A stretch of 64,000 nt of DNA from Anaerovoracaceae bacterium (lineage in GTDB: Bacteria; Bacillota; Clostridia; Peptostreptococcales; Anaerovoracaceae). The DNA lies in NCBI GenBank assembly GCA_045114615.1, contig JBGUKU010000099.1, positions 1,385 to 65,384 of the forward strand, in the 5' to 3' direction. The stretch's first letter is position 1. Every line of letters begins with the position of its first letter. Shown here one piece after another: positions 29,929 through 51,633 of the stretch. A program made the position numbers and the translations under genes. The notes below the pieces were generated by a model, which saw nothing but the letters and a program-made list of their open reading frames with translations, did not search any database and was not told the DNA's origin.

Positions 29929-29955
29929 GAGACCCTTCTCAGGGTCTCTTTTTTT
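29929..29955 (+). terminator. Rho-independent terminator of the aminotransferase gene
   Basis: GAGACCCT-tctc-AGGGTCTC followed by TTTTTTT. The hairpin overlaps the stop codon of the convergent minus-strand gene. Confidence 0.75.
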
Positions 29956-32581
29956 CGAGCAGCTTCATAAGTATCTGTACTTCTTTAGTCTTTTCAAGTT
30001 TATCATAAAATTCCGATGAGAACTCCTCACCGTCAAAGTCATGAGCAGTGATTACGAATTCTTCGAGCTGTGCTGTCTCAAATCTGAGCAGGCCTGTTTC
30101 TTCATTGTATTCCGCTCTATATGCTTTTATCGTCTCTTCAGATGTCTTGTCTTCTTCAGCAAATACCGCATACAGCTGTCTGTCTCTGAAATCTTCCGGA
30201 AGCTCGTAATCCATGACCACTTCTACCGGCATTCCCAGTTTTGTTAGAGCCGTACCGTTTTTATATGCTGAAAGTACATAATACAGTGCCTCTTCTGCAT
30301 TATCTTTTCCGTCGTTAAGATCGTACATGTCGACTGCAAGGCTGATCGTACTGCCGGATGAATTGCTGACTTTTACCGGTCCGGAATTACCAGATTTAAC
30401 AGCTTTATTTGGCTTAACCGTCCTGGAATCATGTGTTTTTTTCGTGTCGTCTGACTTTACAGTATCAGGTTTGCTATCCGTTTTATCAGACTCGTCCGGT
30501 TTGCTTATGAGTCCGGTTCCGGTAAGGATTCTTTTTGCATTTCCTCCGATCGTTCCTGATCCGGTACGGGAGGAAATCGTAGTTGTTATCACCGAACCCG
30601 GCGCCGGTTCATGAATGCCTATATAATCAGCTTTACGGATCAGATAGATATTATCGGCAGAAATCTGTTCACCCGGACTACGAAGCACTGTGACTGTAAG
30701 CCTTCCGTTTATGTATCTGAAAATCTGATAGACTTCATTAACTCCCCCATAACCGTATTTTTCATGCAATACATCGTAGGATATGACCTTATCATCCCCT
30801 GCATCAAAAGCGTTGAACGGATCAAGCATGATATATTCCCCGCTTTCATAGGACGCTGTATGTCCGTAAAAGTCATTTCCGTCAAAATACGTGTGTTCAA
30901 AGAAGTTTAACGATACAACAGGTATCTCCTTCTGATCAGGAACAGTAACCAGATCCTTTGGTCCCATGAATACCGGCCCGCCGGTACCCATGGATACAGT
31001 TCCTGATCCGCTGTAATCGAATACTACAGGCGCTCCTTGTCTTCCATTGTAATCGCAGCTGCCGGTTTTTGCTCCATTCAGCAATTTGAAATTTTCCTCC
31101 AGATCTATTACTCCGGACCTTAAATACAATTCTCCTCTGTCAACAGATTCTGTAAGCTTCAGTTCATCGCTGCGGATTCCCCATCTCCCGTAAATATCCA
31201 GCCGGTCACCGTCCTGCATTATAATGTTTTTGATAACAGAGCCATGTTCGTAGTATAGTTCAGAGCTGCCGGTGTTTGTGAGTTTTTCGATCTGGCAGCT
31301 TCCATTCAGACTCAGAATGGAATCTTTGATTTTGATATTCAGCTCCTGCCCCTTATTTAGCCGGATCAATGAATTTTCAAGAACACCACTCCCCGAATAA
31401 TCACCATCGATATCAATGATATATCCTTTGAGTTGCCCTGATGTGATCCTGCCGTCATTAACAAGGTTCTTAACTACCTCTAAACCATTTACGACCTGGG
31501 TTATTAAAGCTCCATTCTCCAAAACAAGGTTGTCGACAGTGAGATGGCCATTGAAAACAGCACTATCTGTATATTTTTCACCTTTCTTCCATTCCTCACT
31601 TCCCCTCTCCATAAACTTGTAGATAGGATCACCGTTCTCATCATAATTTATATTTACAAATAACGATGTGATCCTGAGACTGGAGTTCCCTGGCAATACG
31701 AGCGTTGTTCCTTCCGGTAAAACGATCTCATCATCGATCACGCCTGTAACACTGCCATTGATAAGCTTGTAACTTCCATCATCCTGTCGCAGAAACAGTG
31801 CAGCACTTCCGCCATCTTCACCATAAAACTCAGTAACGGAGTGCAGGTTAAGCGCACTGTATTCAGAAATTTCAATTTTGTCGATCAGTATGATACCGGT
31901 ACCAATGATATCGATCTGCCCGTCAAACGAAAGTGTGCCTACTTTGCTGATACCTGTAGTAACAATGGTCACGCCGGTCCCGTTTGCCGTAATATCCGTT
32001 TTTTCTTTGAGCCCATCCAGAACAATGGTATTGTTGCTGCTGTCATAACTCCATCCGTCTCCGGATCCGTTTGAGCTGCCATCCAGCGTGGTTCCTGCAA
32101 TGGTTATCTTCTTTTCAGCAGGTGTACCTAAAGTTTCAGAACCCTGAGAAGCAAGGCTTTTACGTAAAGTGATGGCCGCCGGCTCTGAAGTTTTTTCAGA
32201 AGATTCAGGAGTCGCATCTTCCGGTTCAATACATGTCTGATCTGCATCTGCCGGTCCGTCTATTCCGGTCTCAGTTCCGACTGCATCCTGGATCTGCTCC
32301 TCCGGTACTTCAGCTGATTCGGATCCTGACTGCACCTGCTCTTCCTGCGCTGCCGTATTTTCTATTGTCTCCTGTACAGGTGTGCTTTCCGGTGCTTCTG
32401 CTTCTGTATTCTGAGATGCAGCGTTTTCAGAGACATGGTCAGCAACATCCTGTGAAGAACTGCCGCACTGCTCCTCTGCAGCAATATCCTCAATATCCTC
32501 TGCAAATACGACACATGCAGAAGGAATGACCATCAGCATGACCAAAACCATGCAAAGTCCTTTTCTTATAATTCTGTGCAT
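29939..32581 (-). CDS. Large secreted protein B (paralogue of 35509-38154): signal peptide + acidic low-complexity linker + beta-rich repeat region + conserved acidic C-terminal module
   Basis: Start refined to ATG 32581 (MHRIIRKGLCMVLVMLMVIPSACVVFA-ED), 7 nt after AAAGGAG. Colinear similarity to the other giant, e.g. KKITIAGTTLDGSSNGSGDGWSY...GTGIILIDKIEI and C-terminal LYAVFAEEDKTSEETI...FDGEEFSSEFYDKLEKT. No LPXTG motif and no C-terminal TM segment. Confidence 0.75.
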   Translation of the reverse strand: MHRIIRKGLCMVLVMLMVIPSACVVFAEDIEDIAAEEQCGSSSQDVADHVSENAASQNTEAEAPESTPVQETIENTAAQEEQVQSGSESAEVPEEQIQDAVGTETGIDGPADADQTCIEPEDATPESSEKTSEPAAITLRKSLASQGSETLGTPAEKKITIAGTTLDGSSNGSGDGWSYDSSNNTIVLDGLKEKTDITANGTGVTIVTTGISKVGTLSFDGQIDIIGTGIILIDKIEISEYSALNLHSVTEFYGEDGGSAALFLRQDDGSYKLINGSVTGVIDDEIVLPEGTTLVLPGNSSLRITSLFVNINYDENGDPIYKFMERGSEEWKKGEKYTDSAVFNGHLTVDNLVLENGALITQVVNGLEVVKNLVNDGRITSGQLKGYIIDIDGDYSGSGVLENSLIRLNKGQELNIKIKDSILSLNGSCQIEKLTNTGSSELYYEHGSVIKNIIMQDGDRLDIYGRWGIRSDELKLTESVDRGELYLRSGVIDLEENFKLLNGAKTGSCDYNGRQGAPVVFDYSGSGTVSMGTGGPVFMGPKDLVTVPDQKEIPVVSLNFFEHTYFDGNDFYGHTASYESGEYIMLDPFNAFDAGDDKVISYDVLHEKYGYGGVNEVYQIFRYINGRLTVTVLRSPGEQISADNIYLIRKADYIGIHEPAPGSVITTTISSRTGSGTIGGNAKRILTGTGLISKPDESDKTDSKPDTVKSDDTKKTHDSRTVKPNKAVKSGNSGPVKVSNSSGSTISLAVDMYDLNDGKDNAEEALYYVLSAYKNGTALTKLGMPVEVVMDYELPEDFRDRQLYAVFAEEDKTSEETIKAYRAEYNEETGLLRFETAQLEEFVITAHDFDGEEFSSEFYDKLEKTKEVQILMKLLEKKRP

Positions 32582-32597
32582 AACAGGTCTCCTTTCT

Positions 32598-34661
32598 TTA
32601 GAATAACTGCATCTCATTGATAACTGCATTTATTTCATCGCTGATCATTCCGGCATCTTCCTGTGCCTCCAGATCGCGTTTTATAGTATCAGCCTCTCCA
32701 AGTCCCGATGACGCTATTTCCCTGAACAGGCTGACTGCTCTATCGCTGTTGCCGGAGTACAGACATGCATAGGCATAGTTCAGTTTTACCAGCATGTTAT
32801 CCGGCTGGAGTTCGAGAGCTGACGATGCGGATGCGAGCGCAGCATTATAGTCTCTCAGGTGGATAAGTTCATAATATGAACGCCAGGCGAGGTACTGAGC
32901 CCGGTGATACTCTCCGAGAGACTCTGACACCTGACTGTATTCCCCCAGCCCCCGAGCGAAAAGCCTTTCTGACTTGTCGTATTCGTGCGCCTTGAATGCG
33001 TTTTCGCCGGTATTGAGCAGGCTTACCGCATATGCTGCGCGGTCCGGATCCGAACCTGTTTTTGCATATATCTTTCCGTAGACATCCGATGCATCAGAGT
33101 AATACTCATCAGCGGTGATGTAGTTTCCGCGGATATTGTGGCTGAGTCCTCTGTTGTTATAAAGCTCCGCCAGCATCTGCTGATATGAAATGTTTTCTTC
33201 GTCCTGTGCGAGTATCTCTGCATCTTTGATGGCTTCCTCGTAATAGCGGTCAGCATCTTCATAGTTTCCCGCATCCGTCAGACATGCGGCAAGCATGGAT
33301 GCGATCTGGATGCTGTTACTCCTGTTCTGGAGCGAATCGTTCATTCCTACAAGGGCATTAATGTCTTCATATGCATCTGACAGCATATCTGCTGCATCAT
33401 TGTACAGACCTGATCTATAGAGGAGTACTCCGTAATCGTATTTTACAGTACTGAGTGCATCAAGCACGTCTGCAGACTTATCCATACTGTCAAGAAGTCC
33501 CAGGCTCTGCTCAAAGCGTTCTGCCGCCAGATTTCCGTTTCCAAGATCGATAGCATTGCTTCCGGAGTTGAAGATCATTCTCGCCAGAACAAGATCGTCT
33601 CCGTGTGCAAGCGCCTGCTGCATGCCGATGGCCTTGTCGTAATCCTCTCCTGCCTCTTCATAGCGGCCTGCGGAGTTCAGTATGATAGCCCTGTTGTTGT
33701 ATCCGGATGCTGTACCGGCCTCCGCTTTTTCATATCCGGATCCTGCCAGCGTCTCGAACAGTGAAATGGCTGTGGTCTCGGAATCAAGAGCTTCATTATG
33801 CATTCCGAGAACATTCTCTGCCGTAGCCAGCTTTTCATAGTTTACGGCAGCCTCATACTCTCCTGCCTCTTTGTTGCGTGTCAGCCTGAGGATCTTATTT
33901 ATATCCTCAGTATTGTTGTACAGTATGTCACGGATACGGCTGTATGATCCCGGAACATCCGCAAGGCTGTCAGGCAATCCGTAGGTTAGATCATTCAGGA
34001 TCTGCATTGAAGCTGCTTCACGTTTTTCAGCTTCATTTCTGTAATTCTGTGCGCGTATCATCAGGCTCAGCGAGACTGCAAGTATCAGGACAAATGCAGC
34101 GGCACAGGTGACAGCACGTTTTACGACGTTTCTGTTCTGTTCTAACTGGTGCTCTCTGGCCAGCTCCTCCTCAGTGCAGCCGGCAATGCATGCGATCACC
34201 TTGAGCATCTCAGATTCGGCAAGAGACATCATCCTGCGAGTATCATTCCCCGGAACACGTATATCCATGAGCCTGTCCATTATATCCGGTATCAGCTTCA
34301 TGGATGCAGGGAATGAGGTATCAGGATCTCCGCTTATGAGTATCGGGAATACATGATCTGCTCTGCCGAGCTCAATGAAAGTTGCCACCTCCCTGTCTAC
34401 CCATTCAGACGAAGGAGTATCGGTCGAGCATACCACTACAAGGCAATCTGTGGAATGCAGAGCCTTGTCTATCGTATCGGTAAGTATCCTGCTTACAGGC
34501 AGCTCTTCAGTATCCCTGAAAGCACGCCTTACTCCATGCATTCCCCTTTCACGCAAAGAGGCAGGCAGACGGTAATTCTCTGCCAGATTGAACAGTTTCT
34601 GCGTTATCTCACTGTCCAGCGGCCTGTGGCGGTAGCTGAAGAACACATCGTAATCAAACAT
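32598..34661 (-). CDS. TIR domain - single TM - TPR-repeat protein
   Basis: 687 aa. N-terminal DVFFSYRHRP...CLVVVCSTDTPSSEWVDREVATFIE...VFPILISG is a TIR-domain signature (betaA FxSY, W-x3-E). One TM segment at aa 183-202. The C-terminal ~440 aa consist of repeated A/Y/N-rich 34-aa TPR-like units (YNNRG.., EEA/YEEAI..). GGGAGG RBS. Confidence 0.8.
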   Translation of the reverse strand: MFDYDVFFSYRHRPLDSEITQKLFNLAENYRLPASLRERGMHGVRRAFRDTEELPVSRILTDTIDKALHSTDCLVVVCSTDTPSSEWVDREVATFIELGRADHVFPILISGDPDTSFPASMKLIPDIMDRLMDIRVPGNDTRRMMSLAESEMLKVIACIAGCTEEELAREHQLEQNRNVVKRAVTCAAAFVLILAVSLSLMIRAQNYRNEAEKREAASMQILNDLTYGLPDSLADVPGSYSRIRDILYNNTEDINKILRLTRNKEAGEYEAAVNYEKLATAENVLGMHNEALDSETTAISLFETLAGSGYEKAEAGTASGYNNRAIILNSAGRYEEAGEDYDKAIGMQQALAHGDDLVLARMIFNSGSNAIDLGNGNLAAERFEQSLGLLDSMDKSADVLDALSTVKYDYGVLLYRSGLYNDAADMLSDAYEDINALVGMNDSLQNRSNSIQIASMLAACLTDAGNYEDADRYYEEAIKDAEILAQDEENISYQQMLAELYNNRGLSHNIRGNYITADEYYSDASDVYGKIYAKTGSDPDRAAYAVSLLNTGENAFKAHEYDKSERLFARGLGEYSQVSESLGEYHRAQYLAWRSYYELIHLRDYNAALASASSALELQPDNMLVKLNYAYACLYSGNSDRAVSLFREIASSGLGEADTIKRDLEAQEDAGMISDEINAVINEMQLF

Positions 34662-34663
34662 GT

Positions 34664-35509
34664 CTAGCCTCCCGTTACAGGCTGACCGCTCTCAGCCGTA
34701 TCATCAAGACCGAGCTCCTCAAGGGAACTCCTTGCATTATCCACTGCCTGCTGTATGTATACCAATGCCTGCGGTTCATCTGCGAATGCCGCCGGCAGTT
34801 CGTTCATCGTCCTCTCAGCGATCTCACGGCACAGTTTTGCCTGCTGATCTGCTATCTCACCTTCTGTGCGGGCAACATGTCCCAGATATGCAAATATCCC
34901 TGCCGCTCCCAAGCAGACAGCAGCGATCACAGATACCAGCATAATTATCGCTTTTCTGCGGCGCATGCGGTGGCGCTGCTCAAGGGCATCAGGATGCAGT
35001 CCCAGGATTGATGCGATGATCCTGACAGTCTCATAGCTCAGCGCTTCCCTCCAGCGCGAGCGGGTCTCTGCGCGAAGATCTGACGCTACAGGCTCTATGG
35101 TCTCGACGCGCTCAACGACAGTCATGTCAGGAAGTATCTTCTGAACGGTCTTTTTCTCAATAAAAGACTCCGGGAAAGAGTCGATAGGCTCTCCCCGGAC
35201 TATCACAACGATAATATTATTATCTTTTCCGATCTTGCGGAAATACTCAAGGCGCTCAAGTATGAACGGACTGGCCTTTGTTTCAGGCGAACAGAGCACT
35301 GCCAGAAAGCGGCTGTTGTCTAAGACATCACGTGTATCATCATCAAGCTCTCTGCCGGACACATCAACATACACCCGCCTGTAATCCAGTCCGCTGTCCG
35401 GAAGGACCACTCCTGACGGGAGTCTGTACTTGCGTATGCTGTCCGCAAGCTTATTTGCGACTGATGCATCCCCTGCTACGGCAATGATGCAGATATCAAA
35501 GTTCCGCAT
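34664..35509 (-). CDS. Divergent TIR-like domain - single TM - short ectodomain protein
   Basis: 281 aa. The N-terminal ~115 aa are colinear with the TIR of the next gene (FDICIIAV / KYRLP / FLAVLCSPETKASPFILERLEYF / IIVVIVRGEP). A basic cluster RHRMRRRK precedes the TM segment (aa 187-209), followed by a ~70-aa C-terminal tail. The ATG overlaps the upstream stop (TAATG). Confidence 0.65.
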   Translation of the reverse strand: MRNFDICIIAVAGDASVANKLADSIRKYRLPSGVVLPDSGLDYRRVYVDVSGRELDDDTRDVLDNSRFLAVLCSPETKASPFILERLEYFRKIGKDNNIIVVIVRGEPIDSFPESFIEKKTVQKILPDMTVVERVETIEPVASDLRAETRSRWREALSYETVRIIASILGLHPDALEQRHRMRRRKAIIMLVSVIAAVCLGAAGIFAYLGHVARTEGEIADQQAKLCREIAERTMNELPAAFADEPQALVYIQQAVDNARSSLEELGLDDTAESGQPVTGG

Positions 35510-38154
35510 TATCCTTCTTTTCTTTCTTTCAGATGTTCTATGAACAGCTTTGCCTCGTCCGTCTTCTCGAGCTCATCATAGAACTCAGGTGAGAATTCCT
35601 CGCCGTCGAATTCAAGTGCGGCGATAATAAACTCTCCCAGCTGTGAAGTCTCAAATCTGATCGTTCCGCTCTCTTCATCGTATTCGGCTTTTACAGCCGC
35701 AAGTGTCTCATCCGAGGTCTCATCTTCGTTGGCAAAGACCGCATAGAGCGGTTTATCCCTGAATTCCTCCGGAAGCACATACTCCATTTCCGCCTCGACA
35801 ACCCCGCTGAGTTCGGTGATCTGCGCACCGTTTATATATGACGTAAGGTTATAATACGGCGCTTTTTCGGCATTCTCAACGCCTTCGTTAAGATCGAACT
35901 CATTGATCTGAAGCACAATTGTATCACCTACTGTAGTGACTGCTGCGATCGTGTAATCACCGGCCGGTTTGCCAGGGTCCGGATCAACCGGTTTTGGCTC
36001 AGGCTTTGGTTCAGGCTTTGGTTCAGGCTTTGGTTCAGGTTTTGGTTCAGGCTCGACAGGATCCTCTGACGAGAACCTTGAAATGCCTGTTCCTGTAAAG
36101 ATAGGTTTGGAATTACCGCCAATATTTCCCGAGCCGGTCTGTGATGCATGTGTCGTAGTCATGGCAGATCCTCCAATGTTCTCTTCCGTAGCGGTCCGAA
36201 CCACCTTTCTTATCAGAAACACACCGTCAGCATCAGTGCTTTGCTGATAGCCATATCCAAGAATAGTCATGGACAATCTGCCGTTTTTGCAGCGGAGCAC
36301 CTCGAATAAAAATGGGGAAACCCCAAACTCTGATAATATCTCTTCAGGGACATAGGAGCTAAGCAGGTCAGTATAAGTAATCAAACCTTCTTCGTTTTTC
36401 TCTGATACATTATAGTCTGCAAGCTGAGTGTAAACCTCTTCTTCATTCACGTTTTCTTCCCATGTGTAATATAACAAGGGTTTCCTGGTATCAAGAAGAG
36501 CCAAAGACACGACCGGGATAGAATCAGCCTCCGGCATGATAATATCTTTCGGACCGAGGTATACAGATCCGTTTATCCCGTATGATACAGCACCTTTCCC
36601 GCTGTAATCGAACACCGGCCCTCCATATGTTTGGTTGCTTACTGTGGCTTCATTCACTTTAAGATCCGCTTCGAGTTCTGTAATAGCAGATTTGATCACA
36701 ACAGAGACTTTTTCGATCTCGTCAGTGATCTTAACAATACGATTGTCATTAAAAATATTTCTGCTGTATATACTCAACGAACCATTGGAAGAAGACTTTA
36801 TCTTCTTTAATTCAACATTACCCTCATAATATAGTTCGCAGTTTCCCGTGATGTTTAATTCATTGAGCGTATAATCACCACGCTCCAGAGAAACATTGGC
36901 ATCCCTGAGCTTGATGCTCGTTGTCTGGCCTTGGCTAAGTGTAATTATGGAATTCTCGATAATACCTGATCCCGAATAACCGACAGCGTCTACAAGGCCG
37001 CCGTTGATGACTCCATCATTTACCAGACTGCCGACAACTTTGAGGCTTGATATGATCACATCCGATACTCTATTGAGTTTGATCGTTGCGCCTTTTTTGA
37101 CAGTCAGATCGTTTACCTTCAGATTAGCTATGTAGTACCTGATAGCAGCTGCTTTCAATTCTTCTTCACTAAAGCCGGAATAGTCCCTTATGATAGTCTC
37201 ATTACCGTCTTCATCCGTCTCAACTACGACACCAAGAGCCTGAAGTTCAAGATAAGAGTTCTCAGGAAGTACAAGCTTCACATCTTCGATCTTATAATTC
37301 TCATCGACAATGCCTTTGACCGTTCCGTTAATAAGCATATATGATTCATCATCCTGTTTAAGGAATACTGCAACGCTGCCCCCGTCCTCTCCATAATAGT
37401 CTTTAAGAGGAAGAAGATTGAAGGAGCACCCTTCTGCAAGCTCAACCTTATCGATGAGAAGGATCCCGGTCCCGATAACATTGATGTCCCCGTCACAGGA
37501 AAGCGTTCCGATCCTGTTTAAACCGGTGGAAACGATATCGACTCCAGTGCCGTCTGATGTGATATCAGCGCTGTCTGTATAGTCCCTGAGAACTATCCTG
37601 CCGCTGTCCTTTTCGTAAGTCCATCCGCTTCCGCTGCTGTCGGCAGTGCAGTTGAGCTTAGTTCCGGCAATGGTAATCGTTTTATCTGTCTGAGCTGCTG
37701 TTCTTACTGATGCTGCAGCTGCCGGAGCAGGTGCATAAGCCGCTTTTGCCACAGCAGGTGCAGGCGCCGTATCTTTCGGATCTTCTTCAGGCCCGGACGG
37801 TTCAGGTGCAGCAGCTGACTCCGCCGTATCCTGCTCAGCAGGCTCGTACGGCTCGGGTTCTGCAGCCACTTCTTCAGCTGCAGTTCCGGCCTTTGCTTCA
37901 GATGCTTCTGGTGTTTGCATAGCTGCATTCTCAGATGATTCAGGTATTTGCGCAGCCGCACTCTCGCTTGATGCAGGAGCTGCAGGTTTCTCAGCTGCTG
38001 TCTCCGCCTCAGGCTCAGGCTGCACTGCTTCAGTATCAGCTGCTGTGTCCTGATCCTCCGGTAAAGTGTCGTCTGCAAAGACCTGCCACGTAAAAGGCAT
38101 GATCATAAGCATGATCATTAATATGCTGATGGTTTTGCGCGCATTACTTTTCAT
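35509..38154 (-). CDS. Large secreted protein A: signal peptide + Ala/Pro/Glu linker + beta-rich repeat region + (PEPK)n linker + conserved acidic C-terminal module
   Basis: 881 aa. Signal peptide MKSNARKTISILMIMLMIMPFTWQVFA-DD and AAGGGGGA RBS. Paralogous over its full length to 29939-32581. No sortase motif or C-terminal anchor. Confidence 0.8.
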   Translation of the reverse strand: MKSNARKTISILMIMLMIMPFTWQVFADDTLPEDQDTAADTEAVQPEPEAETAAEKPAAPASSESAAAQIPESSENAAMQTPEASEAKAGTAAEEVAAEPEPYEPAEQDTAESAAAPEPSGPEEDPKDTAPAPAVAKAAYAPAPAAAASVRTAAQTDKTITIAGTKLNCTADSSGSGWTYEKDSGRIVLRDYTDSADITSDGTGVDIVSTGLNRIGTLSCDGDINVIGTGILLIDKVELAEGCSFNLLPLKDYYGEDGGSVAVFLKQDDESYMLINGTVKGIVDENYKIEDVKLVLPENSYLELQALGVVVETDEDGNETIIRDYSGFSEEELKAAAIRYYIANLKVNDLTVKKGATIKLNRVSDVIISSLKVVGSLVNDGVINGGLVDAVGYSGSGIIENSIITLSQGQTTSIKLRDANVSLERGDYTLNELNITGNCELYYEGNVELKKIKSSSNGSLSIYSRNIFNDNRIVKITDEIEKVSVVIKSAITELEADLKVNEATVSNQTYGGPVFDYSGKGAVSYGINGSVYLGPKDIIMPEADSIPVVSLALLDTRKPLLYYTWEENVNEEEVYTQLADYNVSEKNEEGLITYTDLLSSYVPEEILSEFGVSPFLFEVLRCKNGRLSMTILGYGYQQSTDADGVFLIRKVVRTATEENIGGSAMTTTHASQTGSGNIGGNSKPIFTGTGISRFSSEDPVEPEPKPEPKPEPKPEPKPEPKPVDPDPGKPAGDYTIAAVTTVGDTIVLQINEFDLNEGVENAEKAPYYNLTSYINGAQITELSGVVEAEMEYVLPEEFRDKPLYAVFANEDETSDETLAAVKAEYDEESGTIRFETSQLGEFIIAALEFDGEEFSPEFYDELEKTDEAKLFIEHLKERKEG
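35989..36054. repeat. 12-bp in-frame tandem repeat (about 5 copies of AGGCTTTGGTTC) encoding (PEPK)n
   Basis: Direct reading gives cggttttggctc aggctttggttc aggctttggttc aggctttggttc aggttttggttc. On the coding strand this is EPEPKPEPKPEPKPEPKPEPKP. Confidence 0.9.
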
Positions 38155-38169
38155 GTCAGTCCCCCTTTA

Positions 38170-39723
38170 TCAGACAGCAGACCTGTCTGCGACTCCGGCA
38201 AGCATCTCCCATGCAAAAGCGTCTTTTTCTTTATCTTCTTCACTGAGTTCTGAATACGGGAGCATCATAGGATGCCTGCGCATCAGATCGTTCCTTTCAG
38301 GTGAGTATGTCCAGTTGTACATCTGGTGGTATCTCATCCAGCGTCTGTGCTCCATCTCCCTGCATATGTCCCTCTTATCAGGGTCTGCATCGCTGAACAC
38401 ATCATATGCTCTGCGGCAGTTCTCTTCCGTGAGCTCCGTGATGCTGTCGTCATCGAGAAGATATCGGACCTTTACGATCATGTGATCGGCCGCAGCTATG
38501 TTGGAACGTTTCAGATGATCGCTGAGATCGCTCCATCCGCCAGTTTTGCCAGATCCTTCGTTATAGATATCGTTGAGCGTGACCGCAAGCCTGTTGATAT
38601 CGTCCCTGACAAATGCTCTCATCGTAAATATATCTTTGCTGCTGCCAAAACAGCTGATCTTTTCAACTGTATTGTTTAACCTGACATGGACTTTTGCAGC
38701 TGTCGGGAACAGCATCATGATCTCTTTATAAGTTGCCAGATCGCTCCTGTCATCATCCTCACAGATGATGATCCTGTCGGCATTGCGTATGATCTCCGGA
38801 TGATACTCCCAGCATTCTTCGTGGAGGAACAGTGCGTCATCTTCAGGATCTCCGCCGCATAAAGTTCTGACTGCCTCACGGTGTGACTTCCTGAAATCCG
38901 AGGAATCTCCAAAGACATGGTAGCAGATGTATCTGCCCGGCTCGAATACATTGGTAAGGAGTCCCCTTTCAAGCAATTCTGCTGCGATCTTTCCGCTGCC
39001 GATCAGAACTATGGTCTTCTCGTCTTTGCGTAAAGGATGATCTCTCCAGTAGCACCTGCTGATGATCTCTTTTTTGCTGAATGTATGAAGGCTGCCCGAT
39101 ATCTCGTCAGACCCGAAGTCTGTAAGGCAGTACGTATCTATATCCAGACCGGCAGCATCTGTCGCCTGACGGTAATTCTCCCATGAGTCTTCACCCAGGC
39201 AGAAATACTTTATATCCTGCCCGCTCCCCTTCAGATCGATGAGTTCTTCAGGATTGCAGTCAAGGCGCACAACAGCCCTGCCGCCTATCCGGTTTTCTGC
39301 CGAGCGGCGGAAAATAATGGCGGCGTCAGGGTCATCAGCAAGAACGGATCCTGCAAATACAGCAGACTGCTCGTTCTCCTCACTGATCGCATACCATCTG
39401 CGGTCCCTTAACGACCGGAGTCTGAATCGCGGTCTTGCCTGTCCACTGATAAAACTTATCAGTACACCTACAAGTGCGGTGAACACCCCGAGACTGCAAA
39501 GGGCAAGAATTACACCAAGTGCTTTTCCTGCAGGGGTCACAGGGGAAAGATCTCCGTAACCTACTGTTGTAAGTGTAATGACAGAGTACCAGATGGCATC
39601 CCCTATACTGTGTATGGACGAACCCTCTGCCTTTGATTCGGCAGCCAGCAGCAATATAAGTACCGCCGCATATGCAGCTATAATCGCTATCACTATCCGT
39701 ATGTTTCTTTTTCTGCTGCTCAT
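38170..39723 (-). CDS. 2-TM K+ channel (TVGYGD filter) with cytoplasmic Rossmann-like domains and a C-terminal RyR domain
   Basis: 517 aa. TM1, pore helix, TTVGYGD (codons at 39550-39567), TM2. TIVLIGSGKIAAELLERG is Rossmann-like. C-terminal EMEHRRWMRYHQMYNWTYSPERNDLMRRHPMMLPYSELSEEDKEKD matches the RyR-domain (PF02026-type) signature as I remember it. The start overlaps the upstream stop (ATGA). Confidence 0.8.
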   Translation of the reverse strand: MSSRKRNIRIVIAIIAAYAAVLILLLAAESKAEGSSIHSIGDAIWYSVITLTTVGYGDLSPVTPAGKALGVILALCSLGVFTALVGVLISFISGQARPRFRLRSLRDRRWYAISEENEQSAVFAGSVLADDPDAAIIFRRSAENRIGGRAVVRLDCNPEELIDLKGSGQDIKYFCLGEDSWENYRQATDAAGLDIDTYCLTDFGSDEISGSLHTFSKKEIISRCYWRDHPLRKDEKTIVLIGSGKIAAELLERGLLTNVFEPGRYICYHVFGDSSDFRKSHREAVRTLCGGDPEDDALFLHEECWEYHPEIIRNADRIIICEDDDRSDLATYKEIMMLFPTAAKVHVRLNNTVEKISCFGSSKDIFTMRAFVRDDINRLAVTLNDIYNEGSGKTGGWSDLSDHLKRSNIAAADHMIVKVRYLLDDDSITELTEENCRRAYDVFSDADPDKRDICREMEHRRWMRYHQMYNWTYSPERNDLMRRHPMMLPYSELSEEDKEKDAFAWEMLAGVADRSAV

Positions 39724-41582
39724 TTTACTGACATTTCTCCTTGTTTAAGGATCTCAGGAATAATCAGAACGTTATTGATGTCATACTGCTTGTAGTCCAC
39801 AGCACGCCCTGTAATGGATCTTTCTTTTTCTGACAGATCATCAAGCTCATCCCACGGTATCAGGCAGGCATGAGTGCGGTTTTCAGAATCCTTGAACAAC
39901 CTGATGCCCGGGAGGCCTTTTTCAATGTGTTTTCTGTATGTATCAGCTCTTTCATCGAGCTCAGCGCTGCTCATAGGTGAGTATCCCATCACGAAGTGGA
40001 ATGCATTCCATCTGAGATGCTCCATCTCGCCTAATACTTCCATAACATCCGCGGCCGGCGGCCAGCAGCCTGCCATTACCTCGTCTGTTGTCAGACCTGA
40101 TGCACTTATGAATGCCGGTATGAAATCAGCAGAAGCGCGTGATGACATCTTGCTGAACGAGTCGCATGCCACCCATTTCTCCCAATCTGTCCTGTCAGAA
40201 TCATCATAAGTGCTGTTAATGATGATCGCATCACGGTCTGCTTTCTGTGCTGAAAGATACTCGAGTGAATAGATATCGGCGGTGATGATCGGACTGCCGA
40301 CTGTCTCCTGATATCTGACACCATCTTTTCCGCACCTGATGACACAGATATGTTCAGCTTTACGGCGCTTCAGATACATCATAAGATTATCCGAGATCTC
40401 GCGGTCGCTCTCTTCACTTCCGGTGCAGACCGCTATAAGCTTGAGAGTACTCAGCCTGTTATCGACGTAGTGATAGAACTCAATGCTCCTGCCATCCGCG
40501 TTGAAGCTTCTGATATCATAGTTTTCAAACATCGATGAGCACTCGGCTTTCATGTACCCTGCCTCTTTTTCAAAATTCGGTGAAAAAACAGCAGCGTGGA
40601 ATGTGCTGCCTGCAAACTGTCCGTTCATCAGCAGCTGTTTCAGTACAGCCTGTCCATGTCTGCCGAAGCCCACTATGGCGCAGTCAAAATCTTCCTGAGC
40701 ACGGCCGTCACTGCCGAATCTCACAAGTTCCCAAGGCGGGCAGGTCTTTATCAAAGCCCTTGCTGAAAGCATGGCACTGTCATAAACGTTGACGTAACCG
40801 TATCCGTACTGATCCGCAGATACCTGCAGCATCGAAGTTATGATATCTTCAGCTCCCGGAAGAGTAATGGCTGTTTTTTCAGGAGAGACGCCTGCTTCTT
40901 TAAGGGCATTTTTCAAGCCAAGAGCATAAAACAGATCTTTGTCCTCTTCATCCATTGCGAACACTTTTATATTGCGCCGGCTGACCCTGAGCCTTCTCAT
41001 CACGGACTTGTCGGACGATACAGCTGCGGGACCGCTTATAACGGACATCCCCATGTTGTTGAGATCTGTCACAGTGGAAGGATCGACATTTTCAGAAACG
41101 AAAATCACAGAACCGGCACCCCGTTCACGGCATTCCTTGCCCAGGCTTATGCTGCGGTCGTTGATTCCGTAGATCAAAGTCAGATCACCTTTTGCAGAAA
41201 GGATCATGCGCAGGTATCTCAAAGCTTCCTCACCGAGCGTGAACATCGCAGCACTGGCCATAGAATAAAACGCCAGAAGATGTATGATCCAGAATAATAC
41301 GATCCTGAACGGTGTCCCGACAGGTGAAGTGCCTTCTATTGATCCGTAATCATTTATGCCGACGAACATTTTTATCACACAAAAAGGCGTGCGGATCATG
41401 CTGAGCCCGATGTCACCGGTGCTTTCAGCAAATCCAACGCCATATATAAGTACACCTCCGGCAAAGGCTATGATCATGCATATGGTTGTGAGCCTGGCAG
41501 AAAAAGATGGTTTCAGAGCAAGGTTAAGAACCATTGCCAGAAGCAATGCAGTTGACAGGATAACAACAGTCACACTCGTCAT
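39720..41582 (-). CDS. Multi-TM protein with TrkA-N-like Rossmann domains and a C-terminal RyR domain (no pore signature)
   Basis: Start refined to ATG 41582, 5 nt after AGGAGG (track start is GTG 41588). ~5 N-terminal TM segments. AIVGFGRHGQAVLKQL is a Rossmann motif. C-terminal EMEHLRWNAFHFVMGYSP...HACLIPWDELDDLSEKE is an RyR-domain signature. Confidence 0.75.
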   Translation of the reverse strand: MTSVTVVILSTALLLAMVLNLALKPSFSARLTTICMIIAFAGGVLIYGVGFAESTGDIGLSMIRTPFCVIKMFVGINDYGSIEGTSPVGTPFRIVLFWIIHLLAFYSMASAAMFTLGEEALRYLRMILSAKGDLTLIYGINDRSISLGKECRERGAGSVIFVSENVDPSTVTDLNNMGMSVISGPAAVSSDKSVMRRLRVSRRNIKVFAMDEEDKDLFYALGLKNALKEAGVSPEKTAITLPGAEDIITSMLQVSADQYGYGYVNVYDSAMLSARALIKTCPPWELVRFGSDGRAQEDFDCAIVGFGRHGQAVLKQLLMNGQFAGSTFHAAVFSPNFEKEAGYMKAECSSMFENYDIRSFNADGRSIEFYHYVDNRLSTLKLIAVCTGSEESDREISDNLMMYLKRRKAEHICVIRCGKDGVRYQETVGSPIITADIYSLEYLSAQKADRDAIIINSTYDDSDRTDWEKWVACDSFSKMSSRASADFIPAFISASGLTTDEVMAGCWPPAADVMEVLGEMEHLRWNAFHFVMGYSPMSSAELDERADTYRKHIEKGLPGIRLFKDSENRTHACLIPWDELDDLSEKERSITGRAVDYKQYDINNVLIIPEILKQGEMSVK

Positions 41583-41655
41583 AAGCACCTCCTGTTCTGA
41601 TCCGGAAGAGTTGCAGACAATATTCTCTGAATACGGAAACTCCGTAATATTTATG

Positions 41656-44466: not shown

Positions 44467-47400
44467 CTGTCAAAGTTTTTTCATAGCCGAATACGGCGCA
44501 TCCCTTGCGTCCGGCTTCCTTGACCTTATACAGTGTGCTGTCTGCATCACTGAATATGTCTCCCTGCGGATCCTCACGATCCGAGAAAGCTATACCGACA
44601 CTCAGCGATACCGGAGGCAGATCATCTTTAGGATGCTGCAATATCTCGTTAACACGGTTCATCTTGTTTAATACGAGCTGACTCATAGAGCTGTTCGCTC
44701 TGGTCATGATTACAGCAAACTCATCTCCTCCTATACGGCACAGCACGTCGACGGATCTGAAACTCGTCTTGAGAAGTTCCGCCACACGTTTAAGGACACG
44801 GTCGCCGACAGCATGTCCATATGTATCATTCACAGTTTTGAAGTAATCAACGTCAATCAGGATAAGTGCCATATGCTTAGTGTCAACGCTTTCCATAATA
44901 AGGTCATATGCACCGCGGTTGAACAGTCCGGTAAGAGCATCGTGAGAGGCCTCGTGGCTCAGCTTTTCACGTGCAGCACGGTTTTCCTGAAGTATCTGAT
45001 TATACGTTCTTGTGACGAATCTCAGCTCCTCAACACCGGTCGGAGGGATTATCTCCTGGTTCTGCATAAGCTTTACCATGTTAGTAAGCGGCCTGCGTAT
45101 CATCCTGGTAATGATCATAACGATAGCCAGAACGATCAGCAGGAAAAGCACCGTGATCCATGTCTGGAGTTTGACAAGAAGTGAAAGTTTTGTGGAAGCT
45201 TTTTCAAGCTCCTGGCTCGATGACCGTATGAGAGACTTCGTACAAAGCCCTACGTTTTCTCTTATCCTGTCCTTATAGTGCATGTAATTATTATCGAATA
45301 CGAGTGTCTCAGCCAGATCTTTCATCTGCTCAGGAGTAAGACGTCGTTCCTCAGGGGTGAGCTGTACGTTTGCGATGTTTGCAGGCACTGTGCTCATATC
45401 ATACTTTCCGGCTTCCAGGATCAGCCTCATCGCCTTATTTTCATAAACTACAAGCTCATTTGATGAAGCCAGAGCAGCGTTAAGGTTGTCCAGAGCTCCA
45501 CTTTCATCTTCACCGAGGAGTTCTCCGAGACTTTCCACAGCTTTGTCTCTTCTCCTTGTCACTTCAACTTCCTCTATGAAGTCTTCCAGGTATTCCATCT
45601 CTCCTGTTACAACAAAGCAGCGGACACGGTCTGTAAGATAATCCGAGCCGGCCTCCATGTCTGATGCCGCGATCTGAGCAGCTATATACCGGTCACTGGC
45701 AGCCTCCATATACTGATAGCCCTTTGTAACAGATATATCAGCAAACAGAAGTGCTGCTGCAGCAAGGAACGCCAGTATTGTAAAGAATACCGTAGCTGTT
45801 TTGAGCTGTATCGCGCTGTGTGAATCATCATCTATATAGGTCTCTTTTATATCACTGTCACCCTGGGCTGATTCGTTTCTGCGCATCAGATCAAGCTTGA
45901 CCCTGCGGCTCTCGTCGCTTTCCGGCCTGGCATTTTTCTGTACGCTCGCAGCCTTTTTATAGGCAGCATCGGCTTCTTTTTTCTGAAGAATAAACGGTTC
46001 AAACTTCTCAGAAGGAACCGGCTTGGAGAAGAAATATCCCTGAACGATATCACAGCCGATGTTTTTTAACGCTTGGAGCTGTTCTTCCGTCTCTACGCCT
46101 TCTGCAATGACAGGTACTGACAGGAAATCAGATATGCCTATGATTACCTCCAGCATATGAGTATTTCCATCTTCCTTGAAAGCATTCCGTATGAACTGCA
46201 TATCCAGTTTCAGAGCATCGATAGGAAGCGTAGATATCATGTTAAGCGAGGAGTAACCCGTACCGAAATCATCCATCTCGATCTGGAATCCCTTCTCTCT
46301 CAGTCGCTGTGCAGTCTCTATTATCTGTGCTGAATCCTGCGTATATGCGGACTCAGTGACTTCAAGCAGCATGTCACGTCCGCTGAGTCCATGTCTTTCT
46401 GTAAGTTCCTCCAGCGTCTCAACGATATTAGGGTCATACATGTCTATCCTTGATACATTGACTGAAACAGGAACAGAGTACTTGAGCCTGTCTTTCCAAT
46501 CGCGTATCTGTCTTGCAGACTCTTCCCAGACATAATAGTCAAGCTGCTGTATCAGACCGTTTTCCTCAAAAAGAGGTATGAAATCACCAGGGCTTATCAT
46601 ACCGAGCTCAGGATGGATCCACCTTACAAGAGCCTCTGCGCTTGTAAGCACCGGAGTATCAGGTCTCACATCAAACTTAGGCTGATAATAAACCTGGAAC
46701 TGCTTCTCTCTGATTGCAGCCGGGAAAGCTTCTATCAGCTGCTCAGCATACAGCTGCTTTTCATGAAGCATGTCATCGTAAATACCGATCGTTTTGGTAA
46801 ATGATCCTTTTGCGGAATCCGCTGCCATTTTAGCGCGGTCAAACCTTCTTTCTATATCTATGGATCTGTCAGCGCATTCATAGACTCCCATGCGCAGTCT
46901 TATTCTGTTATCCGACAGGCTCTGCTCTGCAAGGCGTTTTGAGGCTCCGTCAAGTATATCTTCGAGACTTCCACCGTGCGGGAGGTAAAGAAGGAATGTA
47001 TCAGCCTCCTGTCTGCATGCCAGGCCGCCCCTTACGCTGACTGTTTCGAGCAGCTGTTCGCCGATCAGACGAAGCACTTCATCTCCGTAGCTTTTCCCAT
47101 ACCGCTCATTGACCATGCGGAAATGATTGACATCTATAATGACAGCGTCCATTTCCTTATCTTTATGATAGTGATCATACTGCTCCGCATAGCGGTAGAA
47201 AAATTCTTTATTATACAGGCCGGTCAGCAGGTCTTTCTCTGTCGACTGGATAATTTCCCTGTCTTCGGATAACTCGATCGTACGCAGTACTCTGGCGTGG
47301 ACCACGTCTACAGCAGGGTATGGCTTCGGTATAAAGTCCGCTGCACCGAGTCTCAGGCTGTCCACTTCAGTTTCCTTTTCAGCAGTCATCACTATAACAG

Positions 47401-47671: not shown

Positions 47672-47688
47672 CTTATCTCTCCTTTATG

Positions 47689-50001: not shown

Positions 50002-50046
50002 GGCTCAATACCCCGATATCAGGCTTTGCCCGAACCCTTCTCTGTA

Positions 50047-50385: not shown

Positions 50386-50416
50386 TTTGATTCTCCTTGT
50401 CTTTATCAGGTTCTGA

Positions 50417-51619: not shown

Positions 51620-51633
51620 GGTCTCACGTCCTC

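What the first reader, a model, noticed from the sequence alone, without database searches (positions are those of the whole stretch)
29939..41582. Six-gene operon with two membrane-anchored TIR proteins, two RyR-domain channel-type proteins and two paralogous secreted giants: candidate undescribed transmembrane TIR system
All six genes are on the minus strand, with junctions of -4 (ATGA), 15, -1 (TAATG), 2 and 16 nt, so co-transcription and partial translational coupling are very likely. The products, in order, are as follows. (i) A multi-TM + Rossmann + RyR-domain protein. (ii) A 2-TM TVGYGD K+ channel + Rossmann + RyR domain. (iii) An 881-aa secreted protein. (iv) A TIR-like/TM protein. (v) A TIR/TM/TPR protein. 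(vi) An ~880-aa paralogue of iii. None of the usual partners of described bacterial TIR defence systems is present here: no Thoeris ThsA SIR2/SLOG, no CBASS or Pycsar cyclase, no STING, no Argonaute. Both TIR proteins are integral membrane proteins with extracytoplasmic portions, which is unlike the soluble TIR effectors I know. A TIR (NAD-cleaving, nucleotide-signal-generating) module encoded next to an ion channel suggests signal-gated ion flux, either as abortive-infection defence or as surface sensing.
Basis: partly seen in the sequence, partly recalled or inferred. Interest (0 to 1): 0.9.

Follow-up and report, generated by a model that had tools for sequence, protein, structure and literature searches.

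The report
Membrane TIR–RyR potassium-channel signalling operon
This is a conserved, undescribed gut-bacterial operon that pairs receptor-like membrane TIR proteins with a potassium channel carrying a ryanodine-receptor-type nucleotide sensor, so it probably turns an outside signal into an NAD-derived messenger that gates ion flux.

Summary
The six-gene layout is real, and every junction is as reported. Domain calls hold with two corrections. g4 is a degenerate TIR that has lost the catalytic Glu. g1 is a paralogue of the channel's cytoplasmic part but is not shown to be a pore.

Comparative genomics shows a four-gene core: g1-g2 (RCK+RyR membrane proteins) and g4-g5 (pseudo-TIR plus TIR-TM-TPR). 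This core is kept through gene-order permutations in many ruminant-gut Clostridia. It carries 0-3 fast-evolving secreted giants found only in such clusters.

More distant g1/RyR relatives in Bacteroidota, Verrucomicrobiota, Spirochaetota and Ignavibacteriales also sit beside TIR genes. Most of those have the same TIR, one TM, extracytoplasmic-repeat architecture.

Two 2026 preprints show that phage RyR domains bind or cleave the TIR products 2'/3'cADPR. The four ligand residues are invariant in g1 and g2.

Best explanation: a Thoeris-like TIR signal relay with an outside-facing sensor and a RyR/RCK-gated K+ channel output. A defence role is unproven, because the locus is not in a defence island.

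It is not type X Thoeris. I rate it a new variant of a known kind, of high interest, with the mechanism inferred and not shown.

The parts
39720..41582 (-). g1: 620-aa membrane protein with an N-terminal 3-4 TM domain, a tandem Rossmann/RCK-like region (GxGxxG invariant) and a C-terminal RyR (R12-type) domain. It is a paralogue of the cytoplasmic part of g2.
   Evidence: ORF and start codon. Hydropathy. hhalign against the g2 family: 96.8%, E 2.6e-10. Invariant residues.
39723..40073 (-). g1 RyR-type domain. H524, W527, H573 and D603 (622-aa ORF numbering) align with the RyDEP ligand/catalytic residues H75, W78, H100 and D117. The domain carries two lineage-specific insertions.
   Evidence: Alignment A2. 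These residues are invariant in 59/59 orthologues.
38170..39723 (-). g2: 517-aa 2-TM K+ channel with tandem RCK domains and a C-terminal RyR domain. Its start overlaps the g1 stop (ATGA).
   Evidence: Pfam Ion_trans_2 1.3e-16 and RyR 1.2e-6. PDB sequence hits to a RyR repeat and to KvAP/KcsA. AlphaFold pLDDT 84 with Foldseek hits to GsuK, MthK, Slo1 and CASTOR.
39550..39570 (-). g2 selectivity filter T52-T-V-G-Y-G-D58.
   Evidence: Sequence. Invariant in the family.
38173..38403 (-). g2 RyR domain (residues 441-517) with ligand residues H459, W462, H484 and D501.
   Evidence: tblastn hits to RyDEP (DyoEdafos gp78) and RyR Tad (CB1 gp68).
35509..38154 (-). g3: 881-aa secreted 'giant'. In order it has a signal peptide, an acidic/Pro/Ala low-complexity region, a predicted beta-solenoid (about residues 180-505), a (PEPK)n linker and a conserved C-terminal domain (736-881).
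   Evidence: The family has 252 clusters at 50% identity.
34664..35509 (-). g4: 281-aa degenerate TIR (FFSY box replaced by CIIA in the window, consensus CILA; Arg where g5 has the catalytic Glu), one TM (188-206) and a short ectodomain of about 70 aa. It is a truncated paralogue of g5.
   Evidence: BLASTP E 3e-14. hhalign 99.0%, E 5.6e-18. Column counts. Hydropathy.
32598..34661 (-). g5: 687-aa TIR (1-130; F7, S9, Y10 and E91 invariant), one TM (184-202) and TPR repeats (about 270-687) predicted to lie outside the membrane.
   Evidence: Pfam and PADLOC. E91 is present in 28/28 homologues. Hydropathy. TPR PDB hits.
34389..34391 (-). Codon for g5 Glu91, at the position of the TIR NADase catalytic glutamate (motif W-V-D-R-E-V).
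   Evidence: The assignment of this position as catalytic rests on established knowledge of TIR NADases.
29939..32581 (-). g6: 880-aa second giant, a paralogue of g3 (37% identity).
29929..29948 (+). Hairpin followed by a T-run. It is the intrinsic terminator of the convergent aminotransferase gene and overlaps the g6 stop codon, marking the 3' end of the operon.

Best explanation
The cluster is a membrane-embedded TIR signalling module with a Thoeris-like logic but a receptor-like input and a RyR/RCK-gated K+ channel output.

Proposed sequence of events:
1. g5 is a single-pass protein with a cytoplasmic, catalytically competent TIR domain and an extracytoplasmic TPR domain.
2. g5 pairs with g4, a truncated pseudo-TIR paralogue, through the shared linker, TM and juxtamembrane segments.
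3. The secreted giants are variable beta-solenoid proteins with a conserved C-terminal domain. They act as exchangeable extracellular co-sensors or ligands docked to the g4/g5 ectodomains.
4. An outside event changes TIR-TIR packing and switches on NAD+ cleavage or cyclisation.
5. The product is most likely a cADPR isomer or related ADPR derivative. It binds the RyR domains at the C-termini of g2 and its pore-less paralogue g1.
6. g1 and g2 together form the RCK gating assembly of the TTVGYGD K+ channel. Binding opens or closes the pore, which changes K+ flux and membrane potential.

Shown here: gene linkage, domain identities, conserved catalytic and ligand residues, and the K+ filter.

Inferred: topology, g4-g5 and g1-g2 complexes, giant docking, the identity of the signal, gating, and the biological role. 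The role could be abortive-infection-type phage defence triggered at the surface, or environmental/host sensing. I rate these about equally likely.
For: Operon structure: tight junctions and overlaps.

Conserved core: the four-gene core is kept at 51-100% identity (g2 down to 44%) with different flanks and three gene orders. These are g1-g2-[G]-g4-g5-[G], G-g4-g5-g1-g2, and divergent g5-g4-G-G-G / g1-g2.

TIR association: 40 of 80 species-level loci found with g1 carry a TIR gene. In 37 of those it is contiguous with the module. The partners include unrelated TIR families confirmed by Pfam: TIR-Sel1, TIR-LRR and TIR-beta-propeller. The association spans Bacillota, Bacteroidota, Verrucomicrobiota, Spirochaetota and Ignavibacteriales.

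Shared TIR architecture: 35 of 42 such TIR proteins have one TM 30-110 aa after the TIR, followed by repeats.

TIR catalytic residues: the g5 catalytic-type Glu is present in 28/28 homologues. g4 has Arg there in 16/22.

RyR domain as a sensor: RyR domains bind 2'/3'cADPR and cADPR at nM affinity, or hydrolyse them (PMC13232231; 10.64898/2026.06.04.730250). The g2 RyR segment hits both characterised phage proteins. The ligand residues H/W/H/D are invariant in g1 (59/59) and in g2 (all four in 42/44).

Channel: g2 has the fold of an RCK-gated K+ channel (GsuK bound to ADP is the top hit) and an invariant filter.

Paralogy: g1/g2 and g4/g5 are each paralogous pairs.

Giants: they occur inside such clusters in 3/3 independent look-ups.
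Against: - No biochemical or genetic data exist for any component.
- About half of the g1-g2 loci have no TIR gene within the sequence held. These include a Lachnospiraceae clade with conserved g2-g1 and no TIR within 10 kb. The RyR/RCK pair can therefore exist without an adjacent TIR.
- The locus and its relatives sit among housekeeping or signalling genes, not in defence islands.
- RyR R12 domains also bind ATP/ADP (as quoted), so the ligand need not come from a TIR.
- g1 and g2 keep the H/D dyad that makes RyDEP a hydrolase, so they might degrade the signal and not sense it.
- Topology rests on hydropathy only.
- The giant's structure model is poor (pLDDT 50).
- I did not compute a formal genome-wide background rate for TIR adjacency.
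Confidence: 0.5

Rival explanations
1. Metabolite-level coupling without a dedicated second messenger. The TIR acts as a plain NADase. The RCK Rossmann domains and RyR domains of g1 and g2 sense the resulting fall in NAD+, or changes in ADPR/ATP/ADP, and adjust K+ flux accordingly.
For: GsuK, the top structural match of g2, was crystallised with ADP. GxGxxG motifs are invariant in g1 and g2. The RyR R12 domain is described as an ATP and drug site. Half of the g1-g2 loci lack a nearby TIR.
Against: All four residues that contact the cADPR isomer in RyDEP and RyR Tad are strictly conserved. The RyR module recurs beside TIR genes even when it is a stand-alone 95-aa protein or is fused to AAA or TrkA_N instead of a channel. 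Both observations point to a specific TIR-RyR link.
Confidence: 0.15
2. The RyR domains of g1 and g2 are signal-terminating glycosidases like RyDEP, not sensors. They would reset or buffer the TIR product, and another part of the system would provide the output.
For: The RyDEP catalytic dyad equivalents (H75, D117) are invariant in g1 and g2.
Against: Most tested phage homologues with the same residues bind but do not cleave the signal. The domains are fused to an ion-channel gating apparatus, the classic position of a ligand sensor. No other candidate effector is conserved in the cluster.
Confidence: 0.1
3. A cell-envelope or adhesion system. The giants are surface adhesins, and the TPR/TIR proteins are their membrane anchors or assembly scaffolds, with TIR acting only as an interaction domain. 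The K+ channel pair serves ion homeostasis and is linked only loosely.
For: The giants are secreted, have a beta-solenoid-like region with weak resemblance to autotransporter passengers and tailspikes, and carry a Pro-rich wall-spanning-type linker. There is no defence-island context. The hosts are gut and rumen bacteria.
Against: The four-gene core persists without any giant (L001, L005, L017, L018). The catalytic Glu and the FxSY box of g5 are invariant. The TIR-RyR linkage recurs in phyla that have no giants.
Confidence: 0.12
4. Chance adjacency of unrelated genes.
For: None beyond the absence of experimental data.
Against: The association is conserved through rearrangements, across different flanking genes and across several phyla. 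Start and stop codons overlap.
Confidence: 0.02

Closest known systems
Thoeris anti-phage systems, especially type X (ThsB TIR + ThsK 'ion channel'; bioRxiv 10.64898/2025.12.03.692087)
   Same: A TIR protein with the catalytic Glu is encoded next to a membrane effector with a K+-channel-type pore. The presumed logic is that a TIR product activates a membrane effector.
   Different: - The type X TIR is a small soluble ThsB of about 155 aa. Its effector is a 208-aa protein with only a weak Ion_trans_2 match and no RCK or RyR domain.
- Here the TIR is a 687-aa single-pass protein with an outside TPR domain and has a pseudo-TIR partner.
- The effector side is an RCK+RyR K+ channel plus a pore-less paralogue.
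- Secreted giants accompany the cluster.
- The locus is not in a defence island.
- PADLOC finds no Thoeris effector.
Phage RyR-domain proteins RyDEP (DyoEdafos gp78) and RyR Tad (Pectobacterium phage CB1 gp68)
   Same: They share the same PF02026/R12 fold family, at 30-35% identity to the g2 RyR segment. All ligand-contact residues are conserved.
   Different: The phage proteins are small, soluble anti-defence sponges or glycosidases. Here the domain is host-encoded, fused to RCK domains and membrane domains, and linked to the TIR producer, which suggests a receptor role. Binding was not tested.
RCK-gated prokaryotic K+ channels (GsuK, MthK) and eukaryotic Slo/BK and CASTOR/DMI1
   Same: A 2-TM TVGYGD pore followed by tandem Rossmann-type RCK domains (Foldseek E 5e-6 to 1e-3, prob 1.0).
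   Different: g2 has an extra C-terminal RyR domain. It is co-encoded, with translational coupling, with a paralogue (g1) that has a different TM domain. No Ca2+-bowl-type features were examined.
Animal ryanodine receptors and Toll-like receptors (functional analogies only)
   Same: As in RyR, an R12-type nucleotide-binding domain sits on an ion channel that may be regulated by cADPR. As in TLRs, a repeat ectodomain, one TM and a cytoplasmic TIR make up the receptor.
   Different: The pore is a K+ channel, not a RyR Ca2+-release channel. The domain order is TIR-TM-repeat, inverted relative to TLRs. The repeats are TPR, Sel1, LRR or beta-propeller. The TIR keeps enzymatic residues instead of acting as an adaptor.

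Membership tests
Thoeris (TIR-signalling anti-phage systems, general) | TIR-domain protein retaining the catalytic glutamate | tested here: met
   g5 passes the Pfam ThsB_TIR and TIR_2 cut-offs. E91 is present in 28/28 homologues.
Thoeris (TIR-signalling anti-phage systems, general) | Adjacent effector of a described type with a known signal-binding domain (SLOG, Macro, SLATT, DUF2270 and others) | tested here: not met
   g1-g4 and g6 have no significant PADLOC hit (only a marginal SspC match for g2, E 0.039), and g5 hits only TIR models. The candidate sensor is a RyR domain, which is not among the described Thoeris effectors.
Thoeris (TIR-signalling anti-phage systems, general) | Protection against phage and infection-triggered signal production | not testable with these tools
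   Needs expression and phage challenge, plus LC-MS.
Thoeris (TIR-signalling anti-phage systems, general) | Enrichment in defence islands | tested here: not met
   The rest of the window contains no defence system. Nine homologous contexts are housekeeping or signalling genes.
Type X Thoeris (ThsB + ThsK) | Small soluble ThsB-type TIR of the type II/X cluster | tested here: not met
   The type X TIR is 155-163 aa and soluble. g5 is 687 aa with a TM and TPRs.
Type X Thoeris (ThsB + ThsK) | ThsK effector family (about 208 aa) | tested here: not met
   L088 3369-3995 has only a weak Ion_trans_2 match (E 1e-3) and no RyR or RCK domain. g2 is 517 aa with RCK and RyR domains.
RCK-gated K+ channels | 2-TM pore with a TVGYG-type selectivity filter | tested here: met
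   Ion_trans_2 at 1.3e-16. TTVGYGD is invariant.
RCK-gated K+ channels | Cytoplasmic RCK (TrkA_N-like Rossmann) gating domains | tested here: met
   Foldseek hits to GsuK, MthK, Slo1, CASTOR and TrkA with prob 1.0 on a pLDDT 84 model. Pfam TrkA_N is not significant for g2 and is sub-threshold for g1.
RCK-gated K+ channels | Ligand-dependent gating | not testable with these tools
   Needs electrophysiology or flux assays.
RyR / R12 domain (PF02026) nucleotide-binding family | Significant match to the family model | tested here: met
   g2 scores 29.1 bits against a cut-off of 27.4. Its PDB RyR-repeat hit has E 1.5e-14. g1 has no Pfam hit but is homologous to g2 across this region.
RyR / R12 domain (PF02026) nucleotide-binding family | Ligand-contact residues (RyDEP H75, W78, H100, D117) | tested here: met
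   Invariant columns in alignment A2. Conserved in 59/59 g1 orthologues; all four conserved in 42/44 g2 orthologues.
RyR / R12 domain (PF02026) nucleotide-binding family | Binding or cleavage of cADPR isomers | not testable with these tools
   Needs purified domains with EMSA, SPR or TLC.

The most novel reading that the evidence does not exclude
These operons are a bacterial 'Toll-like' outside-in pathway. An extracytoplasmic repeat sensor, aided by hypervariable secreted co-receptors, would activate a cytoplasmic TIR cyclase. Its cADPR-type product would directly gate an ion channel through an R12/RyR domain. That would make this the prokaryotic antecedent of the long-debated cADPR-to-ryanodine-receptor axis of animals. 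It would also be the first host-side RyR-domain receptor for TIR signals, widespread across several bacterial phyla.
Probability: 0.3. Interest if true: 0.95.

Novelty: new variant of a known kind. Interest (0 to 1): 0.82.

Why it matters
If the model holds, four things follow.

1. It gives a host-side function to bacterial RyR domains. Until now only phage copies have been characterised, as sponges or hydrolases of TIR signals.
2. It offers a simple bacterial system to test whether R12-type domains transduce cADPR-type ligands into channel gating. This question is still open for animal ryanodine receptors.
3. It extends TIR signalling from cytosolic sensors to receptor-like proteins whose sensor domain faces outside the cell.
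4. It adds a K+-channel effector class and a family of fast-evolving secreted partners that may define what is sensed, whether phage, host or polymer.

The recurring TIR-TM-repeat plus RyR association across phyla suggests a large unrecognised class of systems. Surveys based on defence islands would have missed it.

Tried and rejected
- g1 as a divergent K+ pore (FVGIND against TVGYGD). hhalign of the TM regions gave probability 0.2%, so this is not supported.
- Membership in type X Thoeris. Rejected, because both the effector and the TIR families differ.
- Identity of the giants. The only Pfam, NCBIfam and PDB-profile hits are low-complexity or above-threshold noise. The AlphaFold model from a 2-sequence alignment reached only pLDDT 50. 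Foldseek found no match with E <= 0.001, only weak beta-helix resemblances.
g1, g4 and g5 were therefore not modelled.
- Promoter and terminator scans found no more sites than in shuffled sequence. The exception is the + strand terminator at 29929-29948. Whether the operon has its own promoter or reads through from the upstream kinase gene is unresolved; the gap is 73 nt and contains a small hairpin.
- Rfam and tRNA scans of the window found nothing.
- Literature searches for a host TIR + RyR system found none.
- The g5 family profile against PDB sequences recovered only TPR structures, not TIR. The TIR assignment rests on Pfam and PADLOC.
Full report
**1. Observation**

The region holds six minus-strand ORFs. 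Reading the junctions directly gives these results:
- g1 stop and g2 start overlap as ATGA.
- g2 to g3 has a 15-nt gap.
- g3 and g4 overlap as TAATG.
- g4 to g5 has a 2-nt gap.
- g5 to g6 has a 16-nt gap.

Each start has a purine-rich ribosome-binding site. The ORF finder's GTG at 41588 lies inside the AGGAGG site. The g6 start is the ATG at 32581.

A hairpin plus T-run on the + strand (29929-29948) terminates the convergent aminotransferase gene and overlaps the g6 stop. Promoter- and terminator-like sites are otherwise no more frequent than in shuffled sequence. Co-transcription is therefore inferred from spacing only.

**2. Domain identities**

*g2 (517 aa).*
- It has two TM helices and a pore with T-T-V-G-Y-G-D. 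Ion_trans_2 scores 1.3e-16.
- It has a C-terminal RyR domain at 29.1 bits, above Pfam's 27.4 cut-off.
- Its best PDB sequence match is a ryanodine-receptor repeat (E 1.5e-14), followed by KvAP and KcsA.
- An AlphaFold model from 33 homologues has pLDDT 84. Its best fold matches are GsuK (crystallised with ADP), MthK, Slo1/BK, the CASTOR/DMI1 gating rings and TrkA (E 5e-6 to 3e-3, prob 1.0).
- g2 is therefore an RCK-gated K+ channel with an appended RyR domain.

*g1 (620 aa).*
- It has three strong hydrophobic segments and only a sub-threshold TrkA_N hit.
- Its family profile aligns with the g2 family over 395 columns, from the end of the last TM helix through both Rossmann domains to the RyR domain (hhalign 96.8%, E 2.6e-10).
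- Its TM part shows no similarity to the g2 pore. I therefore do not call it a channel.

*g5 (687 aa).* It passes the ThsB_TIR and TIR_2 cut-offs. It has one TM helix at 184-202 and TPR repeats after it.

*g4 (281 aa).* It has only sub-threshold TIR hits. It is nonetheless a clear truncated paralogue of g5 over TIR, linker, TM and the first ectodomain segment (BLASTP 3e-14; hhalign 99.0%, E 5.6e-18).

*g3 and g6.* They are 37% identical over their full length. Each has a signal peptide and no TM or sorting motif. They match no Pfam, NCBIfam or PDB family.

*Known partners.* PADLOC finds no known partner.

**3. Catalytic and ligand residues**

TIR side:
- In 28 g5-family TIR domains the F-x-S-Y box and the Glu in the W-x-x-x-E position (E91) are invariant.
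- In 19 other TIRs found beside g1-like genes the Glu is present in 17.
- In the g4 family the box is C-I-L-A, and the Glu position is Arg in 16 of 22.
- g5 therefore looks like an active NAD+-processing TIR and g4 like a non-catalytic partner. That this Glu is the catalytic residue is established knowledge of TIR NADases, not something tested here.

RyR side:
- Two 2026 preprints show that phage RyR (R12, PF02026) proteins act on TIR products.
[quoted passage not shown] Its homologues bind them with nM affinity. The contacts are H75, W78, H100 and D117 (PMC13232231).
- RyR Tad of Pectobacterium phage CB1 binds 3'gcADPR (Kd 43 nM), 2'gcADPR and cADPR (10.64898/2026.06.04.730250).
- The g2 RyR segment finds both proteins by tblastn (35% and 30% identity).
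- In an alignment with them the only invariant columns include exactly H75, W78, H100 and D117.
- These correspond to H459/W462/H484/D501 in g2 and H524/W527/H573/D603 in g1. They are conserved in 59/59 g1 orthologues; all four are conserved in 42/44 g2 orthologues.

**4. Conservation of the cluster**

Family sizes and hosts:
- g5 and g2 each have a few hundred homologues with parallel identity ladders.
- The named homologues come from ruminant-gut MAGs labelled Mogibacterium, Oscillospiraceae or Limivicinus.

Gene orders seen in look-ups and in a scan of one genome per species with a g1 profile (80 loci):
- g1-g2-g4-g5 without giants (L001, L005, L017, L018).
- One or two giants between the pairs.
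- A giant after g5.
- G-g4-g5-g1-g2 (L006, L038).
- Divergent g5-g4-G-G-G / g1-g2 (L029, L031).
- The flanking genes differ between clades.

The giants:
- They form a family of about 250 clusters at 50% identity.
- Three arbitrarily chosen distant members all lie inside such clusters.
- They evolve fastest, at 23-54% identity where g1 is 55-85%.
- Their most conserved part is the C-terminal domain.
- A low-confidence model (pLDDT 50) predicts a beta-solenoid for residues about 180-505. It has only weak resemblance to tailspikes and autotransporter passengers.

The closest clade:
- The cluster sits at the same chromosomal site. The flanking aminotransferase, carboxyltransferase and kinase are 88-100% identical.
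- The cluster proteins are more diverged than these flanks.
- The window itself is a mosaic. g2 and g3 match L008 at 99% and 97%. g4, g5 and g6 match L009 at 100%, 99% and 98%. This indicates recombination inside the operon.

**5. A wider TIR-RyR association**

Numbers:
- Of the 80 species-level loci, 40 contain a TIR gene.
- In 37 of these the TIR gene is directly adjacent to g1, or is separated from it only by g2, giants or other TIR/g4-g5-type genes.

The partners are not all g5 relatives. Pfam confirms the following:
- TIR_2-Sel1 (L051, L058, L061, L071).
- TIR_2-LRR (L020, L067, L080).
- TIR-beta-propeller (L044, and L078 in Rubritalea tangerina, next to a TrkA_N-RyR protein).
- A stand-alone 95-aa RyR protein beside a TIR in a Muribaculaceae MAG (L086).
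- An AAA-RyR protein beside a TIR in an Ignavibacteriales MAG (L081).

Shared architecture: 35 of 42 of these TIR proteins have a single hydrophobic helix 30-110 residues after the N-terminal TIR, then the repeats. The TIR has no signal peptide and needs cytosolic NAD+. The repeats are therefore predicted to be extracytoplasmic. This is an inference from hydropathy.

Exceptions: about half of the g1-g2 loci show no TIR in the sequence held. In a Lachnospiraceae clade a nucleoside hydrolase and an AAA ATPase are conserved beside g2-g1 instead.

**6. Context**

The rest of the window contains no defence system, no tRNA and no Rfam match.

Upstream on the same strand lie, in order:
- a hybrid histidine kinase with an amino-acid-permease-like membrane domain;
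- an RR-EAL-GGDEF protein;
- another hybrid kinase.

Downstream lie an aminotransferase and a decarboxylase operon. These neighbours are not conserved outside the closest clade. None of the nine annotated homologous contexts is a defence island.

**7. Mechanism proposed**

I propose a TIR relay across the membrane, in four parts:
- *Input.* The input is the g5 TPR ectodomain. The giants probably assist as exchangeable co-sensors docked by their conserved C-terminal domain. g4 is a non-catalytic TIR partner.
- *Signal.* The signal is an NAD-derived nucleotide made by the g5 TIR.
- *Receiver.* The receivers are the RyR domains of g2 and g1. As paralogues with translationally coupled genes, g1 and g2 probably co-assemble into the RCK gating apparatus.
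- *Output.* The output is K+ flux through the g2 pore.

The gene linkage, domain identities and residue conservation are shown. Complexes, topology, ligand, gating and biological role are inferred.

Arguments for a defence role:
- the analogy with Thoeris membrane effectors;
- from my own knowledge, classical channel-based abortive infection such as RexAB;
- the fast evolution and recombination of the locus.

Arguments against a defence role:
- the lack of a defence-island context;
- stable vertical presence in a clade.

Surface sensing of host, polymer or neighbour cues is equally possible.

**8. Comparison with known systems**

- *Type X Thoeris.* This is the nearest described system, a TIR plus an 'ion channel' (10.64898/2025.12.03.692087). 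I recovered a type X locus. Its TIR is a 155-aa soluble ThsB. Its effector is a 208-aa protein with a weak pore match and no RCK or RyR domain. The present system is therefore not a member.
- *RyR domain.* It belongs to PF02026 and shares the ligand site with RyDEP and RyR Tad. Those proteins are phage counter-defence factors.
- *g2.* By fold and filter it is a member of the RCK-gated K+ channels.
- *TLRs and animal RyRs.* These resemblances are functional analogies only.
- *Literature.* I found no paper or preprint in the searched library that describes a host TIR operon with RyR-domain proteins, or TIR-TM-repeat receptors linked to them.

**9. Verdict**

I rate the system a new variant of the TIR-signalling kind, with a plausible but untested mechanism. 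It is of high interest because it would make the cADPR to RyR-domain to channel link directly testable in a simple system.

Noticed in passing
window 32598-39723 (compare L008, L009): The operon is a recombinant mosaic. g2 and g3 are 99% and 97% identical to one MAG (L008). g4, g5 and g6 are 100%, 99% and 98% identical to another (L009). The reciprocal comparisons give only 76-83% (g6 has no L008 orthologue). This implies a breakpoint near the g3/g4 junction (about 35.5 kb).
   Followed up: partly
L047, L049, L050, L052, L054, L055 (about 11.9-12.9 kb and 4.5-6.5 kb): In Lachnospiraceae loci that lack a TIR gene, the g2-g1 pair is followed by a conserved IU-type nucleoside hydrolase (Pfam 8e-24). 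In five of the six loci it is preceded by an AAA ATPase. This may be an alternative partner set for the RyR/RCK pair.
   Followed up: partly
L086 7826-15511; L078 413-10390; L081 848-4059: Distant variants of the TIR-RyR pairing. L086 (Muribaculaceae) has a g1-like protein, a stand-alone 95-aa RyR protein (Pfam 2e-34), a TIR-TM protein and a TPR protein. L078 (Rubritalea tangerina) has two TIR-TM-WD40 proteins next to a TrkA_N-RyR protein. L081 (Ignavibacteriales) has an AAA-RyR protein next to a small TIR.
   Followed up: partly
L001 18031-20142: A second receptor-like TIR gene (TIR_2, one TM, LRR; 703 aa) lies 6 kb downstream of the four-gene core in one MAG. Similar TIR-LRR genes sit directly beside g1 in L020 and L067, and a third TIR protein of this subfamily (repeats not checked) in L034.
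   Followed up: partly
window 41656-52692: A run of same-strand signalling genes lies upstream. It comprises a hybrid histidine kinase whose membrane part resembles an amino-acid permease, an RR-EAL-GGDEF protein, a second hybrid kinase, a BTAD/GGDEF-like protein and a PilT/T2SSE-type ATPase. The kinase is conserved next to the cluster only in the closest clade (L012, L014).
   Followed up: partly
window 35980-36060 (g3 residues 699-725): A (PEPK)n proline-rich repeat separates the body of giant g3 from its conserved C-terminal domain. It resembles the wall-spanning linkers of Gram-positive surface proteins. It accounts for the spurious Trypan_PARP Pfam hit.
   Followed up: no
window 41589-41655: The 73-nt gap between the kinase stop codon and the g1 start contains a small hairpin (TACGGAGTTTCCGTA) without a T-run. 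Whether it attenuates read-through into the operon is unknown.
   Followed up: no
window 34950-35130 (g4 residues 126-187): The cytoplasmic linker between the degenerate TIR and the TM helix is the most conserved part of g4 (81% against 64% for the TIR-like part). Its invariant motif is PDM..E...TIEPVA.DLR...YETVR..AS.LG.HPD.LEQRHR. This suggests a functional interaction surface.
   Followed up: no
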